Shown: positions 4,900 to 12,962 of the stretch, piece by piece
How the letters are laid out: the number at the start of each line of letters is the position of its first letter
Position numbering within the stretch: the stretch's first letter is position 1
Assembly: GCF_041886205.1 (NCBI RefSeq)
Contig: NZ_CP169029.1
From: Escherichia coli
GTDB lineage: Bacteria > Pseudomonadota > Gammaproteobacteria > Enterobacterales > Enterobacteriaceae
Direction: 5' to 3' (one strand)
Length of the DNA stretch: 64,000 nt
Program-made: the position numbers and the translations under genes
The notes under the pieces: generated by a model
The model's database searches: none
What the model was told of the DNA's origin: nothing
Seen by the model: the letters and a program-made list of their open reading frames with translations, nothing else

Positions 4900-5080
4900 G
4901 TAAGCCGGATAAGGCGCTCGCGCCGCATCCGGCAACGATGCCAGATGCCTGATGCGACGCTTGCGCGTCTTATCAGGCCTACAAATTCCCGCACCCTCCG
5001 TAGGCCGGATAAGGCGTTTACGCCGCATCCGGCAACAGTGCCGACTGCCTGATGCGACGCTCGCGCGTCTTATCAGGCCG
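4900..5080. repeat. REP/BIME cluster (several REP palindromes)
   Basis: Repeated GCCGGATAAGGCG...GCATCCGGCA and CCTGATGCGACGC...GTCTTATCAGGCC units in alternating orientation between phnA and phnB. Confidence 0.85.
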
Positions 5081-5142
5081 CCTCTCATCTGTATAAATTT
5101 CGAACTACACTTAACTGGCTTCTCTTAACTGAGGTCACCATC

Positions 5143-5586
5143 ATGCCGTTAAGTCCCTACCTCTCTTTTGCCGGTAACTGTTCCGACGCGATTGCCTATT
5201 ATCAACGTACGTTGGGCGCGGAACTGCTCTATAAAATCAGCTTCGGCGAAATGCCAAAATCAGCGCAGGACAGCGCCGAGAACTGCCCTTCCGGAATGCA
5301 ATTTCCCGATACCGCCATCGCTCATGCCAACGTGCGCATTGCCGGAAGCGACATCATGATGAGCGATGCCATGCCGTCAGGAAAAGCCAGCTACTCCGGC
5401 TTTACGCTGGTGCTCGATTCGCAACAGGTCGAAGAAGGAAAACGCTGGTTTGACAATCTTGCCGCTAACGGAAAAATCGAAATGGCCTGGCAGGAAACTT
5501 TCTGGGCGCATGGCTTTGGCAAAGTCACCGATAAATTTGGCGTACCGTGGATGATTAATGTCGTTAAACAACAACCAACGCAATAA
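5143..5586 (+). CDS. phnB: PhnB (glyoxalase/bleomycin-resistance fold), 147 aa
   Basis: 147-aa ORF between phnA and phnC; sequence matches remembered PhnB. Confidence 0.85.
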   Translation: MPLSPYLSFAGNCSDAIAYYQRTLGAELLYKISFGEMPKSAQDSAENCPSGMQFPDTAIAHANVRIAGSDIMMSDAMPSGKASYSGFTLVLDSQQVEEGKRWFDNLAANGKIEMAWQETFWAHGFGKVTDKFGVPWMINVVKQQPTQ

Positions 5587-5611
5587 CCCGCCGGGAGGCC
5601 CGCCCTCCCGC

Positions 5612-5660
5612 ACTGTCATCGAATTCCCGTTAACTCTTCATCTGTTAGTCACTTTTAATT
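5612..5660 (+). promoter_or_regulatory. Candidate Pho box / phnC promoter region
   Basis: CTGTCAT-type heptamers (CTGTCATCG ... CTGTTAGTCAC) 60-100 nt upstream of the phnC ATG; the phn operon is a known PhoB regulon member. Exact site boundaries not verified. Confidence 0.4.
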
Positions 5661-5718
5661 AACCAAATCGTCACAATAATCCGCCACGATGGAGCCACTT
5701 TTTTAGGGAGGCTGCATC

Positions 5719-9632: not shown

Positions 9633-10213
9633 CCCTGGAAACCGCTTTTATGCTTCCCGTGCAGGATGCCCAGCACAGTTTTCGTCGCCTGTTAAAGGCC
9701 ATGAGCGAGCCGGGCGTGATTGTCGCCCTGCATCAGCTCAAACGCGGCTGGCAACCGCTGAATATCGCCACCACCAGCGTGCTGCTGACGCTGGCCGATA
9801 ACGACACGCCGGTGTGGCTTTCTACCCCATTAAATAACGATATCGTCAACCAGAGCCTGCGTTTTCATACCAACGCGCCGCTGGTCAGCCAGCCGGAACA
9901 GGCGACCTTCGCGGTGACGGATGAGGCGATTTCCAGCGAACAGCTCAACGCCCTTTCCACCGGCACCGCCGTTGCGCCGGAAGCGGGTGCGACGCTGATT
10001 TTACAGGTCGCCAGCCTGAGCGGCGGACGCATGTTGCGCCTTACTGGTGCGGGTATTGCCGAAGAACGAATGATCGCTCCGCAGCTGCCGGAGTGCATTC
10101 TGCACGAACTCACCGAGCGCCCGCATCCGTTCCCGCTCGGCATCGACCTGATCCTGACCTGTGGCGAGCGCCTGCTGGCTATTCCGCGAACCACTCATGT
10201 GGAGGTGTGCTGA
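9629..10213 (+). CDS. phnH: C-P lyase core complex subunit PhnH
   Basis: 194 aa; 4-nt overlap with phnG. Confidence 0.9.
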
Positions 10214-11277
10214 TGTACGTTGCCGTGAAAGGGGGCGAGAAGGCGATCGACGCCGCCCACGCCCTGCAAGAGAGCCGACGCCGAGGCGATACCGATTTGC
10301 CCGAACTGAGCGTCGCCCAGATTGAACAGCAGCTTAACCTCGCGGTAGATCGCGTGATGACCGAAGGCGGCATTGCCGACCGCGAACTGGCGGCGCTGGC
10401 GCTGAAACAGGCCAGCGGCGATAACGTTGAAGCGATTTTCCTGCTGCGCGCCTACCGCACCACGTTGGCGAAGCTGGCGGTAAGCGAGCCGCTCGACACC
10501 ACCGGGATGCGTCTCGAACGCCGTATCTCCGCCGTTTATAAAGACATTCCCGGCGGCCAGCTGCTTGGCCCAACCTACGACTACACCCATCGCCTGCTCG
10601 ATTTTACCCTGCTGGCAAACGGCGAAGCGCCGACGCTGACCACCGCCGACAGCGAACAGCAGCCGTCGCCGCACGTTTTCAGCCTGCTGGCGCGTCAGGG
10701 GCTGGCGAAGTTTGAAGAGGATAGCGGCGCACAGCCGGATGACATCACCCGCACGCCGCCGGTTTACCCCTGCTCACGCTCCTCCCGTTTGCAGCAGTTG
10801 ATGCGCGGCGACGAAGGCTATTTGCTGGCGCTGGCCTACTCCACCCAACGCGGTTACGGGCGCAATCACCCGTTCGCAGGCGAGATCCGCAGCGGCTATA
10901 TCGACGTGTCGATTGTGCCGGAAGAGCTGGGATTTGCGGTGAACGTCGGCGAACTGCTGATGACTGAGTGTGAAATGGTTAACGGTTTTATCGACCCGCC
11001 GGGTGAGCCGCCGCACTTCACGCGCGGCTACGGGCTGGTGTTCGGCATGAGCGAGCGCAAAGCGATGGCGATGGCGCTGGTCGACCGCGCTCTGCAAGCC
11101 CCGGAGTACGGCGAGCACGCGACAGGCCCGGCGCAGGATGAAGAGTTCGTGCTGGCACATGCCGACAACGTCGAAGCCGCAGGCTTTGTCTCACACCTCA
11201 AACTCCCCCACTACGTCGATTTCCAGGCCGAACTGGAGCTACTCAAACGTCTGCAACAGGAGCAGAACCATGGCTAA
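10213..11277 (+). CDS. phnI: C-P lyase core complex subunit PhnI (354 aa)
   Basis: Start taken at [16 protein letters not shown], overlapping the phnH stop; the tracked ORF 10093-11277 is a 5' over-extension. Confidence 0.85.
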   Translation: MYVAVKGGEKAIDAAHALQESRRRGDTDLPELSVAQIEQQLNLAVDRVMTEGGIADRELAALALKQASGDNVEAIFLLRAYRTTLAKLAVSEPLDTTGMRLERRISAVYKDIPGGQLLGPTYDYTHRLLDFTLLANGEAPTLTTADSEQQPSPHVFSLLARQGLAKFEEDSGAQPDDITRTPPVYPCSRSSRLQQLMRGDEGYLLALAYSTQRGYGRNHPFAGEIRSGYIDVSIVPEELGFAVNVGELLMTECEMVNGFIDPPGEPPHFTRGYGLVFGMSERKAMAMALVDRALQAPEYGEHATGPAQDEEFVLAHADNVEAAGFVSHLKLPHYVDFQAELELLKRLQQEQNHG

Positions 11278-12115
11278 TCTGAGCGGCTACAACTTTGCCT
11301 ACCTCGACGAGCAGACCAAACGCATGATCCGCCGCGCCATCTTAAAAGCGGTGGCGATCCCCGGTTATCAGGTGCCGTTTGGCGGGCGCGAGATGCCGAT
11401 GCCGTACGGCTGGGGAACCGGCGGCATTCAGCTTACCGCCAGCGTGATTGGCGAAAGCGACGTGCTGAAGGTGATTGACCAGGGCGCGGATGACACCACC
11501 AACGCCGTGTCGATTCGCAACTTCTTCAAGCGCGTGACCGGGGTAAACACCACGGAACGTACGGACGATGCGACGGTTATCCAGACGCGTCACCGCATCC
11601 CCGAAACGCCGCTGACCGAAGATCAGATAATTATCTTCCAGGTGCCAATCCCCGAGCCGCTGCGCTTTATCGAGCCGCGCGAAACGGAAACCCGCACCAT
11701 GCACGCGCTGGAAGAGTACGGCGTGATGCAGGTGAAACTGTATGAAGATATCGCCCGCTTCGGTCATATCGCCACCACCTACGCCTATCCGGTGAAGGTA
11801 AATGGGCGCTACGTGATGGACCCGTCGCCGATCCCGAAATTCGATAACCCAAAAATGGACATGATGCCCGCCCTGCAACTGTTCGGCGCGGGGCGCGAGA
11901 AGCGCATCTATGCGGTGCCGCCGTTTACCCGCGTGGAAAGTCTCGATTTCGACGATCACCCGTTCACCGTTCAGCAGTGGGATGAGCCATGCGCCATCTG
12001 CGGATCGACCCACAGCTATCTTGATGAAGTGGTGCTGGATGACGCCGGAAACCGCATGTTTGTCTGCTCCGATACCGATTATTGCCGCCAACAGAGCGAG
12101 GCAAAAAACCAATGA
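11270..12115 (+). CDS. phnJ: C-P lyase PhnJ (radical SAM-dependent C-P bond cleavage subunit)
   Basis: Start at MANLSGYNFAYLDEQTKRMIRRAILKAVAIPGYQVPF; C-terminal CxxCxxxxxC cysteine cluster (CAICGSTHSYLDEV). Confidence 0.85.
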   Translation: MANLSGYNFAYLDEQTKRMIRRAILKAVAIPGYQVPFGGREMPMPYGWGTGGIQLTASVIGESDVLKVIDQGADDTTNAVSIRNFFKRVTGVNTTERTDDATVIQTRHRIPETPLTEDQIIIFQVPIPEPLRFIEPRETETRTMHALEEYGVMQVKLYEDIARFGHIATTYAYPVKVNGRYVMDPSPIPKFDNPKMDMMPALQLFGAGREKRIYAVPPFTRVESLDFDDHPFTVQQWDEPCAICGSTHSYLDEVVLDDAGNRMFVCSDTDYCRQQSEAKNQ

Positions 12116-12870
12116 ATCAACCGTTACTTTCGGTCAATAACCTGACCCACCTTTACGCGCCGGGCAAAGGCTTTAGCGATGTCTCTTTTGATTTATGGCC
12201 GGGGGAAGTGCTGGGCATTGTCGGGGAATCCGGCTCCGGGAAGACCACGCTGCTGAAGTCGATCTCCGCGCGCCTGACGCCGCAGCAGGGGGAAATTCAC
12301 TACGAGAACCGTTCGCTGTATGCAATGAGCGAGGCCGACCGCCGTCGCCTGCTGCGTACCGAATGGGGCGTGGTGCATCAGCATCCACTCGACGGCCTGC
12401 GCCGCCAGGTGTCGGCAGGCGGCAATATCGGCGAGCGGCTGATGGCGACCGGGGCACGTCATTACGGCGATATTCGTGCCACCGCGCAGAAGTGGCTGGA
12501 AGAGGTGGAGATTCCCGCCAACCGGATCGACGACCTGCCGACCACCTTTTCCGGCGGTATGCAGCAGCGTTTGCAGATTGCCCGCAACCTGGTGACGCAT
12601 CCGAAGCTGGTGTTTATGGATGAACCGACCGGCGGGCTGGATGTGTCGGTGCAGGCCCGCCTGCTCGACCTGCTGCGCGGCCTGGTGGTGGAGCTGAACC
12701 TCGCGGTGGTGATTGTCACCCATGATTTAGGCGTCGCCCGCCTGCTGGCGGACCGTTTGCTGGTGATGAAGCAGGGGCAAGTGGTGGAGAGTGGGTTAAC
12801 CGACCGCGTGCTCGACGACCCGCATCATCCGTATACACAGCTGCTGGTGTCATCGGTTTTGCAGAATTGA
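12112..12870 (+). CDS. phnK: ABC-type ATPase PhnK (C-P lyase accessory)
   Basis: Walker [10 protein letters not shown], signature FSGGMQQR, Walker B VFMDEPT. Confidence 0.9.
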
Positions 12871-12871
12871 G

Positions 12872-12962
12872 CCGGTGCCGGATGCGGCGTAAACGCCTTA
12901 TCCGGCCTACAAATGCGCTCCCCGTAGGTCGGATAAGACGCGTCAGCGTCGCATCCGACACC
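12872..12962. repeat. REP/BIME element
   Basis: GCCGGATGCGGCGTAAACGCCTTATCCGGCCTAC and GTAGGTCGGATAAGACGCG...GCATCCGACA between phnK and phnL. Confidence 0.85.

What the first reader, a model, noticed from the sequence alone, without database searches (positions are those of the whole stretch)
4900..12962. REP/BIME elements inside the phn transcription unit
REP clusters occur at three junctions (phnA-phnB, phnD-phnE, phnK-phnL), two of them inside the 14-gene phnC-P operon. Intra-operon REP hairpins are known to stabilise upstream mRNA and create differential expression, which here would favour the transporter genes phnCD and the core lyase genes over distal ones.
Basis: partly seen in the sequence, partly recalled or inferred. 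Interest (0 to 1): 0.2.

Follow-up and report, generated by a model that had tools for sequence, protein, structure and literature searches.

The report
REP hairpin repeats punctuating the phn operon
Three clusters of the common E. coli REP hairpin repeat really do sit after yjdM (phnA), phnD and phnK; this is an ordinary, already described kind of element that probably sets stepwise mRNA levels along the phosphonate operon, although other E. coli strains carry an unrelated repeat (BoxC) at the same two operon junctions.

Summary
The window is an E. coli chromosome segment (not K-12; phnE is intact).
- four between yjdM/phnA and yjdN/phnB, forming two Y-Z2 units of the known element REP325/naRNA4
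- a Z2-Y pair between phnD and phnE
- a Y-Z2 pair between phnK and phnL

Chance expectation is zero.

REP325 has been shown experimentally in K-12 to stabilise yjdM mRNA and attenuate yjdN, but it lies outside the phn operon.

For phnD-phnE, my comparison of 80 loci shows a stable hairpin after phnD in 78% of Enterobacterales and 58% of other Proteobacteria, against about 5% after other phn genes. Unrelated sequence families supply it.

For phnK-phnL the ancestral junction is short and empty. Inserts there look opportunistic.

Among 5,426 E. coli genomes, the phnD-phnE junction holds REPs in 3,877 and a BoxC/triplex-motif repeat in 1,506. The phnK-phnL junction holds REPs in 4,841 and BoxC in 550. 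Almost none is empty.

All three REP clusters start within 15 nt of the upstream stop codon, which a published model links to lower translation of the upstream gene.

The element is a known kind and of low interest. No expression data tested here resolve the effect.

The parts
4900..4933 (-). REP unit R1, Y type; first hairpin of REP325 unit 1 (yjdM-yjdN gap). It starts 14 nt after the yjdM stop codon (4883-4885).
   Evidence: (0 mismatches to the Y pattern); Rfam naRNA4 hit 4903-4979, 93 bits.
4947..4982 (+). REP unit R2, Z2 type, head-to-head with R1 across a 13-nt linker.
   Evidence: (0 mismatches); fold.
5000..5033 (-). REP unit R3, Y type; REP325 unit 2. It is 100% complementary to R7.
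   Evidence: (inverted pair I4); Rfam naRNA4 hit 5003-5079, 106.7 bits.
5047..5079 (+). REP unit R4, Z2 type, lacking the terminal CTAC tail.
7552..7587 (-). REP unit R5, Z2 variant (GTCGGAT...ATCCGAC). It starts 3 nt after the phnD stop codon (7546-7548).
   Evidence: (family D5).
7605..7638 (+). REP unit R6, Y type with a compensatory stem change (GGTG/CACC in place of GGCG/CGCC). It ends 5 nt before the phnE Shine-Dalgarno GGAG (7644-7647); the ATG is at 7654.
   Evidence: (2 mismatches, both in paired positions); Rfam naRNA4 hit 7555-7635 on the minus strand. Listed as REP324, a tandem phnD/phnE pair, in the Harris 2026 supplement.
12877..12910 (+). REP unit R7, Y type. It starts 6 nt after the phnK stop codon (12868-12870).
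12924..12959 (-). REP unit R8, Z2 variant, tail-to-tail with R7 across a 13-nt linker. The phnL SD GAGG is at 12971-12974 and the ATG at 12981.
   Evidence: Together with R7 it folds as one long hairpin, -60.7 kcal/mol, z -7.3.
5719..16532 (+). phnCDEFGHIJKLMNOP transcription unit that contains the R5/R6 and R7/R8 clusters. phnE is intact here.
   Evidence: Annotation of the identical record. In K-12 under phosphate starvation it is assembled as a single transcript.
16556..16591 (-). BoxC / PIT / TMECO repeat immediately 3' of phnP, with a partial inverted arm at 16632-16655. It belongs to the same family that replaces the REPs at phnD-phnE and phnK-phnL in other E. coli strains.
   Evidence: Identical to MG1655 TMECO no. 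22 in Table 1 of PMC4666352.

Best explanation
These are ordinary E. coli REP elements arranged as BIME-2-like clusters: Y and Z2 units in alternating orientation, with short linkers and no IHF site. They are dispersed, probably transposase-propagated palindromes lodged in the few junctions of this gene block where neighbouring genes do not overlap.

When the unit is transcribed from the Pho-regulated promoter upstream of phnC, each cluster folds into very stable stem-loops directly behind the stop codon of phnD and of phnK. I infer three consequences:
- The hairpins block 3'-to-5' exonucleases, so processed or prematurely ended transcripts ending there (phnCD, phnC-K) persist.
- A fraction of polymerases stop or are released there.
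- Together these give a stepwise decline, phnCD > phnE-K > phnL-P, while enough read-through remains to express all 14 genes from one promoter.

The step after phnD, which encodes the periplasmic binding protein, appears to be a selected design feature. A hairpin at that position is kept across Proteobacteria and is supplied by whatever local repeat or terminator-like hairpin is available. The step after phnK looks like a lineage-specific insertion into the only uncoupled junction of the phnG-M block, with at most a modest tuning effect.

The yjdM-yjdN cluster is REP325. It acts in the separate yjdMN operon as a stabiliser of yjdM and an attenuator of yjdN.

Shown here: identity, position, folding potential, population and cross-species distribution. 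Inferred: every effect on phn mRNA and protein levels.
For: - **Identity and anatomy:**. No IHF consensus in the clusters. No hairpin-plus-T-run terminator at them.
- **Folding:**
- **REP325 function tested in K-12:** yjdN rose about 8-10-fold and yjdM fell about 3-fold on deletion, with partial Rho dependence only for the full array.
- **Genome-wide:** tandem pairs separated by a REP have a median log2 upstream/downstream ratio of 0.96, against -0.09 for controls.
[quoted passage not shown] Under low expression, sub-transcripts phnG-K and phnL-P break at the phnK|phnL junction.
- **Comparative:** the 60 nt after the phnD stop fold with z <= -2 in 7/9 Enterobacterales and 14/24 other loci, against about 4-6% after the other phn genes (Mann-Whitney p = 9e-6 and 9e-8). 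The sequences supplying this are E. coli-type REPs, BoxC, Pseudomonas-type REPs or hairpin+T-run.
- **Junction gaps:** all phnF-G through phnJ-K and phnL-M junctions overlap or abut in Enterobacterales (median -8 to 0) and never carry inserts. phnK-phnL has a median 24-nt gap.
- **Population:** of about 5,393 E. coli genomes with the locus, 3,877 + 1,506 carry REP or BoxC at phnD-phnE, and 4,841 + 550 at phnK-phnL. Essentially no allele is empty.
Against: - No measurement of mRNA level, half-life or 3' ends across these two boundaries under phosphate starvation was available.
- The K-12 RNA-seq is confounded by the phnE frameshift and by multi-mapping reads at REPs.
- Harris et al. found no general lengthening of half-life for genes ending in a REP. 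They also found that 2-4-hairpin fragments were not Rho-dependent.
- BoxC/PIT elements, which replace the REPs in 10-28% of strains, were reported to have no promoter or terminator activity.
- Many relatives have an empty phnK-phnL junction.
- In uninduced K-12 cells the phnL read count exceeded that of phnK (base means 118 vs 32), the opposite of a step-down.
- Absence of empty alleles could reflect rarity of precise excision and shared ancestry rather than selection.
Confidence: 0.6

Rival explanations
1. Neutral passenger DNA. The REPs, and the BoxC elements in other strains, are selfish or hitch-hiking repeats that landed where insertion does no harm, namely the non-overlapping junctions. 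They have no meaningful effect on phn expression.
For: - The phnK-phnL junction is empty (7-9 nt) in Citrobacter sp., Leclercia and an Enterobacter MAG, and short and unstructured in most Proteobacteria.
- Two unrelated families, several structural variants and even an inverted copy occupy the same sites.
- REP325 varies from 1 to 6 units among strains.
- BoxC loci are known to be hypervariable and lack promoter or terminator activity.
- REP effects are weak and variable genome-wide.
Against: - A hairpin after phnD is conserved far beyond the range of any one repeat family.
- No empty allele appears among about 5,390 E. coli genomes at either junction, despite frequent remodelling.
- Degraded variants still keep a hairpin (L004, L005, L007).
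- A compensatory change preserves the R6 stem.
Confidence: 0.25
2. Translation brake on the upstream gene. Each cluster starts within 15 nt of the stop codon, so the terminating ribosome collides with the hairpin, stalls and is rescued by tmRNA. This lowers PhnD and PhnK (and YjdM) output rather than favouring it.
For: Stop-to-REP distances are 3 nt (phnD), 6 nt (phnK) and 14 nt (yjdM). The 15-nt rule, with ribosome stalling and trans-translation, is summarised in PMC5082802. BoxC alleles also start directly at the stop codon.
Against: - The original study could not be read here, and phn genes were not checked against it.
- A binding protein is usually needed in excess, which argues against selection for lower PhnD.
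- Across species the hairpin-to-stop distance after phnD varies.
Confidence: 0.3
3. DNA-level or trans-acting role. The clusters act as gyrase-binding BIME-2 sites or as sources of HU-binding naRNA4-like RNAs that organise the nucleoid, independently of phn expression.
For: Rfam naRNA4 matches above the gathering score at 4903-4979, 5003-5079 and 7555-7635(-). Qian et al. 2015 assigned nucleoid condensation to REP325 RNA. BIME interaction with gyrase and IHF is recorded in PMC2267715.
Against: - Harris et al. 2026 found no effect of REP325 deletion or overexpression on nucleoid size, no REP-REP Hi-C contacts, and about 1-2 RNA copies per cell.
- The phnD-phnE copy matches naRNA4 only on the strand antisense to phn mRNA.
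- There is no IHF site.
Confidence: 0.08

Closest known systems
REP325 / naRNA4 (yjdM-yjdN BIME-2 of E. coli K-12)
   Same: It is the same locus and has the same Y-l-Z2 77-nt unit. Rfam RF02564 scores 93 and 107 bits. It lies between yjdM (phnA) and yjdN (phnB), as described in PMC4550694.
   Different: There are two units here against six in K-12 (257-nt vs 657-nt gap). In a 60-genome sample about 58% have one unit, about 10% two and about 30% three or more. The proposed nucleoid function is contested. The current evidence is for a local stabiliser/attenuator role, and 2-4-hairpin fragments showed no Rho dependence.
Intra-operon REP after a binding-protein gene (malE-malF, hisJ-hisQ paradigm of REP-mediated upstream mRNA stabilisation; from established knowledge)
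   Same: A REP pair sits directly 3' of the periplasmic binding-protein gene phnD and 5' of the permease gene phnE within one polycistronic unit. Its hairpins are stable (-50.7 kcal/mol). A hairpin at this position is conserved across taxa.
   Different: The effect on phn mRNA has not been measured. The ATPase gene phnC lies upstream and would be co-stabilised. In 28% of E. coli genomes a BoxC element supplies the hairpin.
BoxC / PIT / TMECO intrastrand-triplex repeats (PMC4666352)
   Same: They occupy exactly the same two junctions in other E. coli strains and in Pseudocitrobacter, Kluyvera, Leclercia and Enterobacter. One copy flanks phnP in this window. They are intergenic and hypervariable between strains, as that paper reports.
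   Different: The sequence family is unrelated: G/C-rich CCCTCTCCC/GGGAGAGGG/GGGTGAGGG arms, about 23 copies per genome against hundreds of REPs. No terminator or promoter activity has been reported.
Rho-independent (intrinsic) terminators
   Same: Both are G+C-rich stem-loops at the end of a gene. In Pseudomonas, Stutzerimonas and Rhizobiales relatives the hairpin after phnD is followed by a T-run.
   Different: The E. coli REP clusters have no T-run, and the terminator scan did not call them. The full operon is transcribed through them.

Membership tests
REP / palindromic unit (PU) elements of Enterobacteriaceae | A 33-36-nt imperfect palindrome matching the consensus GCC[G/T]GATGCG[G/A]CG...CG[C/T]CTTATC[C/A]GGCCTAC. 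| tested here: met
   All eight units match. Seven match the Y or Z2 pattern with 0 mismatches and R6 with 2. Chance expectation is 0.00. In the alignment, 18 columns are invariant.
REP / palindromic unit (PU) elements of Enterobacteriaceae | Extragenic location. | tested here: met
   All units lie between annotated CDSs. The conserved CGGAGCCAAAC-ATG flank, shared by REP and BoxC alleles, fixes the phnE start at 7654, downstream of R6.
REP / palindromic unit (PU) elements of Enterobacteriaceae | High copy number, dispersed around the chromosome. | tested here: met
   The phnK-phnL query finds a median of 27 places per genome. The 9-kb query finds a median of 38, capped at 40 pieces per record. 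Further copies lie in this window at 38306-38383 and 56765-56792.
REP / palindromic unit (PU) elements of Enterobacteriaceae | Mobilisation by a REP-associated tyrosine transposase (RAYT). | not tested
   No RAYT gene was searched for in the window. The GTAG/CTAC tail is present on 7 of 8 units.
BIME-2 | Alternating Y and Z2 units in inverted orientation with short linkers, and a variable number of repeats. | tested here: met
   The arrangements are Y(-)/Z2(+) twice, Z2(-)/Y(+) and Y(+)/Z2(-), with linkers of 13-17 nt. The yjdM-yjdN array varies from 1 to 6 units among strains.
BIME-1 / RIP (IHF-binding BIME) | A Y and a Z1 unit separated by a long linker carrying an IHF site (WATCAANNNNTTR). 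| tested here: not met
   No IHF consensus lies within any of the three clusters. All Z units are the longer Z2 form.
naRNA4 (Rfam RF02564) | A score above the family gathering threshold (59.5 bits) over the full 77-nt model. | tested here: met
   106.7, 93 and 69.1 bits. The 69.1-bit match at phnD-phnE is on the strand antisense to phn mRNA. The phnK-phnL pair (tail-to-tail) is not matched.
naRNA4 (Rfam RF02564) | HU binding and nucleoid condensation. | not testable with these tools
   Claimed in PMC4550694. Not reproduced in Harris et al. 2026.
Intrinsic terminator | A G+C-rich hairpin followed within 0-2 nt by a T-run. | tested here: not met
   None of the 26 terminator-like sites called in 4300-17200 coincides with a REP cluster. 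The sequences after the hairpins are AGACCGGAG, ACCCGAACC and GCCTCTCAT.
REP acting as upstream-mRNA stabiliser / attenuator within an operon | Located between co-transcribed genes and transcribed as part of the polycistronic RNA. | tested here: met
   Position. The single phnC-P transcript in starved K-12 comes from PMC3734233.
REP acting as upstream-mRNA stabiliser / attenuator within an operon | The upstream segment is more abundant or longer-lived than the downstream one, and this depends on the REP. | not testable with these tools
   The evidence is only indirect: a qualitative 'decreasing' coverage and the conserved hairpin after phnD. It has been shown for REP325 in K-12.
REP translation brake (REP within 15 nt of a stop codon, tmRNA-dependent) | The REP starts no more than 15 nt after the stop codon of the upstream gene. 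| tested here: met
   The distances are 3, 6 and 14 nt. The rule is as summarised in PMC5082802. The functional consequence was not tested.

The most novel reading that the evidence does not exclude
The two intra-operon junctions behave as slots that are never left empty in E. coli. Non-homologous mobile palindromes (a REP/BIME pair or a BoxC/triplex motif, in either orientation and in single, double or collapsed form) replace one another there as interchangeable RNA hairpin modules. This would make the phn operon a natural allelic series for testing whether it is the structure, not the repeat family, that sets the phnCD : phnE-K : phnL-P expression steps.
Probability: 0.3. Interest if true: 0.4.

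Novelty: already known. Interest (0 to 1): 0.2.

Why it matters
The REP clusters themselves add nothing new. REPs are among the longest-known bacterial repeats. The yjdM-yjdN cluster is the model element REP325, and the phnD-phnE cluster is already catalogued as REP324.

Two by-products have modest value:
- **A conserved hairpin after phnD.** It is found across Proteobacteria in whatever sequence is locally available. That is good comparative evidence that expressing the binding-protein segment differently from the permease is selected in phosphonate transporters.
- **A natural experiment in E. coli.** The population carries REP and BoxC alleles at both junctions and 1-6 REP325 units. This could be used to measure what these repeats actually do to operon stoichiometry, a question the latest literature still calls context-dependent.

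Tried and rejected
- **Intrinsic terminators.** Rejected: there is no T-run and no call by the terminator scan.
- **BIME-1/IHF sites.** Rejected: no IHF consensus in the clusters.
- **Internal promoter created by the REPs.** No sigma-70-like site lies on the + strand at either junction. However, the phnL > phnK read counts in uninduced K-12 and a phnL-P sub-transcript remain unexplained.
- **Per-gene RNA-seq values under phosphate starvation.** The supplements of PMC3734233 gave only transcript-assembly membership, not coverage values.
- **Original papers.** I could not read the original phn sequencing papers, the carbon-phosphorus lyase review or the 2015 REP-translation paper; none is held. 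My recollection that the 1990-91 phn sequencing papers already noted these REPs, and that Bachellier et al. 1997 described BIME-2 expansion/deletion and boxC insertion as sources of intergenic polymorphism, therefore stays unverified.
- **Rfam search of the alternative alleles.** It gave only meaningless sub-threshold miRNA matches.
- **Naming the second repeat from its neighbours.** A copy between cca and bacA was uninformative. The name was settled from Table 1 of PMC4666352.
- **Rho-binding site near REP324.** The site in the Harris supplement is antisense and inside phnD, so it says nothing about phn mRNA.

Full report
**What the window is**

Positions 4500-13500 are 100% identical to several complete E. 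coli chromosomes, and 5,312 of 5,426 genomes hold at least 80% of the query in one place. The annotation of the identical record (window = locus + 99) gives, all on the + strand:
- yjdM (formerly phnA) 4550-4885
- yjdN (phnB) 5143-5586
- phnC 5719-6507
- phnD 6532-7548
- phnE 7654-8433
- phnF to phnJ
- phnK 12112-12870
- phnL 12981-13661
- phnM to phnP, ending at 16532

phnE is intact here, unlike the K-12 pseudogene.

**Check of the observation**

They contain eight canonical REP units:

| Unit | Type and strand | Coordinates |
|---|---|---|
| R1 | Y(-) | 4900-4933 |
| R2 | Z2(+) | 4947-4982 |
| R3 | Y(-) | 5000-5033 |
| R4 | Z2(+) | 5047-5079 |
| R5 | Z2 variant(-) | 7552-7587 |
| R6 | Y(+) | 7605-7638 |
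| R7 | Y(+) | 12877-12910 |
| R8 | Z2 variant(-) | 12924-12959 |

- Degenerate Z2 and Y patterns each find five sites in the 64-kb window, against 0.00 expected from shuffles. Eight of the ten lie here.
- The alignment shows five Y and six Z2 units with 18 invariant columns.
- R6 carries a compensatory stem change, GGTG/CACC for GGCG/CGCC.
- The elements are dispersed repeats, with a median of 27 places per genome for a 311-nt query across the phnK-phnL gap.
- As RNA in the mRNA sense, the segments fold at -47.4, -45.6, -50.7 and -60.7 kcal/mol, with z from -3.5 to -7.3.
- In the two intra-operon gaps, the two inverted REPs can also pair with each other into one long hairpin.

One correction applies: the first cluster is not in the phn operon but in the separate yjdM-yjdN pair.

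**Anatomy**

- Units alternate in orientation, with linkers of 13-17 nt.
- No IHF consensus lies in any cluster, and all Z units are the long Z2 form. These are therefore BIME-2-like, not BIME-1.
- None is followed by a T-run, and the terminator scan calls none of them.
- Each cluster starts very close to the upstream stop codon: 14 nt after yjdM, 3 nt after phnD and 6 nt after phnK.
- Each ends just upstream of a normal Shine-Dalgarno for the next gene. GGAG is at 7644-7647 before ATG 7654, and GAGG at 12971-12974 before ATG 12981.

**What is already known**

- Rfam finds naRNA4 (RF02564) at 4903-4979 and 5003-5079 on the + strand, and at 7555-7635 on the - strand.
- The yjdM-yjdN cluster is REP325, described as six Y-l-Z2 units in K-12 and proposed to make an HU-binding nucleoid RNA (PMC4550694).
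- A 2026 preprint from laboratories including the original one finds no nucleoid effect. It shows instead that REP325 acts locally in the yjdMN operon. Deleting it raises yjdN about 8-10-fold and lowers yjdM about 3-fold at the native locus. Termination is partly Rho-dependent only for the full array, and 2-4-hairpin fragments are not Rho-dependent.
[quoted passage not shown] The spread is large, and there is no general half-life effect.
- Its supplement lists REP324 as the tandem phnD/phnE element.
- Three RNA-level roles of REPs are summarised in PMC5082802: upstream stabilisation, termination, and ribosome stalling with trans-translation when the REP lies within 15 nt of a stop codon.

**Evidence on the phn transcript**

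[quoted passage not shown] Under low expression, sub-transcripts phnG-K and phnL-P break exactly at the phnK|phnL junction (PMC3734233).

This shows read-through of both clusters and is compatible with a step-down. It is weak evidence for three reasons: K-12 has a frameshifted phnE, reads in REPs are not uniquely mappable, and no per-gene values were retrievable.

**Variation within E. coli**

*phnD-phnE.* 3,877 of 5,426 genomes carry the REP allele. 1,506 carry a quite different insert. Its forms are:
- a G/C-rich palindrome, CCCTCTCCC-loop-GGGAGAGGG, with or without a third GGGTGAGGG arm
- a collapsed 60-67-nt form
- a doubled 124-nt form
- the same element in inverted orientation

These are loci L003-L006.

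*phnK-phnL.* 4,841 genomes carry the REP pair, and 550 carry a 176-nt double copy of that second family.

*The second family.* It is BoxC, also called PIT or TMECO. The sequences match Table 1 of PMC4666352, for example no. 2, CCCTCTCCCTTGAGGGAGAGGGTTAGGGTGAGGGT. That paper reports about 23 copies in MG1655, hypervariable flanks among strains, and no promoter or terminator activity.

*Flanks and totals.*
- The flanks are identical in both alleles. This defines the empty sites as TAA|CGGAGCCAAAC-ATG and TGA|CGAACCACGAGGCGAAAA-ATG.
- The two alleles together account for 5,383 and 5,391 of about 5,393 genomes with the locus. Empty alleles are essentially absent.
- Degraded variants still keep a hairpin (L004, L005; L007 has a 16-nt internal deletion in R5).

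*REP325.* It also varies. In a 60-genome spread sample, about 58% have one unit, about 10% two (as here and in O157:H7) and about 30% three or more. K-12 has a 657-nt gap.

**Comparison with other species**

A PhnK-based scan returned 80 loci from Enterobacterales and other Proteobacteria. I located all phn genes in them by tblastn.

*After phnD.* Every Enterobacterales locus with adjacent phnD-phnE has a gap of 62-251 nt filled by a structured element:
- REPs in Citrobacter and Cedecea
- BoxC in Pseudocitrobacter, Kluyvera, Leclercia and Enterobacter

Most distant loci carry a hairpin of their own. These are Pseudomonas-type REPs, or a hairpin plus T-run in Stutzerimonas, Pseudomonas and Rhizobiales.

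Quantitatively, the 60 nt after the phnD stop fold with z <= -2 in 78% (7/9) of Enterobacterales and 58% (14/24) of other loci. After the other phn genes the figures are 4% and 6% (Mann-Whitney p = 9e-6 and 9e-8). The region after phnC, after phnE and even after phnP is not enriched (raw energies).

*After phnK.* The figures are 13% and 8%, which is not significant. The typical gap is 4-40 nt. Close relatives (Citrobacter sp. FP75, Leclercia, an Enterobacter MAG) have only 7-9 nt, GAGGCSAAC. Even so, 12 of 31 Enterobacterales and 9 of 48 other loci have acquired inserts there, each from the host's own repeat family.

*Other junctions.* All other junctions from phnF to phnM overlap or abut (median -8 to 0 nt in Enterobacterales) and never carry inserts there.

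*Break points of homology.* Homology between the window and Pseudocitrobacter (91-94.5% nt), Citrobacter sp. FP75 and Kluyvera breaks at or within about 20 nt of 7548|7643 and 12871|12963. In Citrobacter werkmanii, which has a REP pair there, it runs through the phnK-phnL junction.

**Most likely mechanism**

The clusters are ordinary BIME-2-type REPs. In the transcript they form stable hairpins right behind phnD and phnK. I infer that they protect upstream RNA from 3' exonucleases and cause some polymerase loss. This would give phnCD > phnE-K > phnL-P, while all genes are still expressed from the phnC promoter.

- **The phnD hairpin.** I consider it a selected feature of phosphonate transporter loci, because the structure is conserved while the sequence family is not.
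- **The phnK insert.** I consider it opportunistic, occupying the only uncoupled junction in the lyase block. Its fixation in E. coli, by one family or the other, leaves room for a modest function.
- **REP325.** It acts on yjdM and yjdN, and the short two-unit array here is expected to be a weaker attenuator than the K-12 array.

The steps shown are identity, position, folding and distribution. All effects on phn RNA and protein are inferred.

**Rivals**

- A purely neutral reading remains reasonable for phnK-phnL.
- The stop-codon proximity (3, 6 and 14 nt) predicts, under the published 15-nt rule, reduced translation of the upstream gene.
- DNA-level or nucleoid roles are now poorly supported.

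**Verdict**

The kind of element is already known and interest is low. The REP/BoxC allelic replacement at both junctions and the conserved post-phnD hairpin are the only points worth carrying forward.

Noticed in passing
window 7549-7653 and 12871-12980; loci L003-L010: In other E. coli genomes the same two junctions carry BoxC/PIT/TMECO triplex-motif repeats instead of REPs (1,506 and 550 of 5,426 genomes). They occur in single, doubled, collapsed and inverted forms. Empty alleles are essentially absent.
   Followed up: yes
window 16556-16591 (-) and 16632-16655: A BoxC/TMECO element identical to MG1655 copy no. 22, plus a partial inverted arm, lies immediately 3' of phnP, between phnP and yjdP. 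The phn unit is therefore bounded downstream by the family that replaces its internal REPs in other strains.
   Followed up: partly
window 4886-5142: REP325 has two 100-nt units here, six in K-12, and a single unit in roughly 58% of a 60-genome sample. The model REP array is strongly copy-number polymorphic, which matters because Rho dependence was seen only for the full array.
   Followed up: partly
window 7591-7654: A longer ORF (GTG 7591) and the K-12 phnE1 pseudogene annotation both start inside the REP pair. The sequence upstream of CGGAGCCAAAC-ATG is non-homologous between REP and BoxC alleles, so the real phnE start is ATG 7654.
   Followed up: yes
window 7654-8433: phnE is intact (259 codons), unlike the frameshifted K-12 allele. 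This strain should therefore be phosphonate-positive, and its operon is free of frameshift polarity.
   Followed up: no
window 12871-12981 (K-12 data): In uninduced K-12 RNA-seq the phnL base mean (118) exceeds that of phnK (32), phnE (36) and phnC (12). A phnL-P sub-transcript was also assembled at time 0 of phosphate starvation. This hints at weak promoter activity at or near the phnK-phnL junction, or at a mapping artefact.
   Followed up: no
window 38306-38383 and 38408-38429: Another Z2/Y REP pair (Rfam naRNA4 hit, 76.9 bits) is followed 25 nt later by a short BoxC-like hairpin (CCTTCTCCCATAAGGGAGCGGG). This is a second place where the two repeat families sit side by side.
   Followed up: no
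window 45615-45755 and 25290-25344: Rfam also finds the Hfq-binding sRNA sraL (153 bits) and a SECIS_2 selenocysteine insertion element (87 bits). Both are unrelated to the finding.
   Followed up: no
L011 (Pseudocitrobacter faecalis DSM 27453): Its phn operon is 91-94.5% identical in nucleotides to the E. coli one, with PhnK 99% identical in amino acids. That is much closer than Citrobacter or Kluyvera (79-85%) and suggests transfer of the operon between these lineages. It carries expanded BoxC arrays (251 and 298 nt) at both junctions.
   Followed up: partly
L084 (Pelagibacterium limicola), phnK-phnL gap: An alphaproteobacterium carries a BoxC-like inverted pair (CCCCTCCCCTCAAGGGGGAGGGG ... 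GGGGTTAGGGGTGGGGG) at the phnK-phnL junction. This is a similar G-rich triplex-type motif at the same junction in a distant lineage.
   Followed up: no
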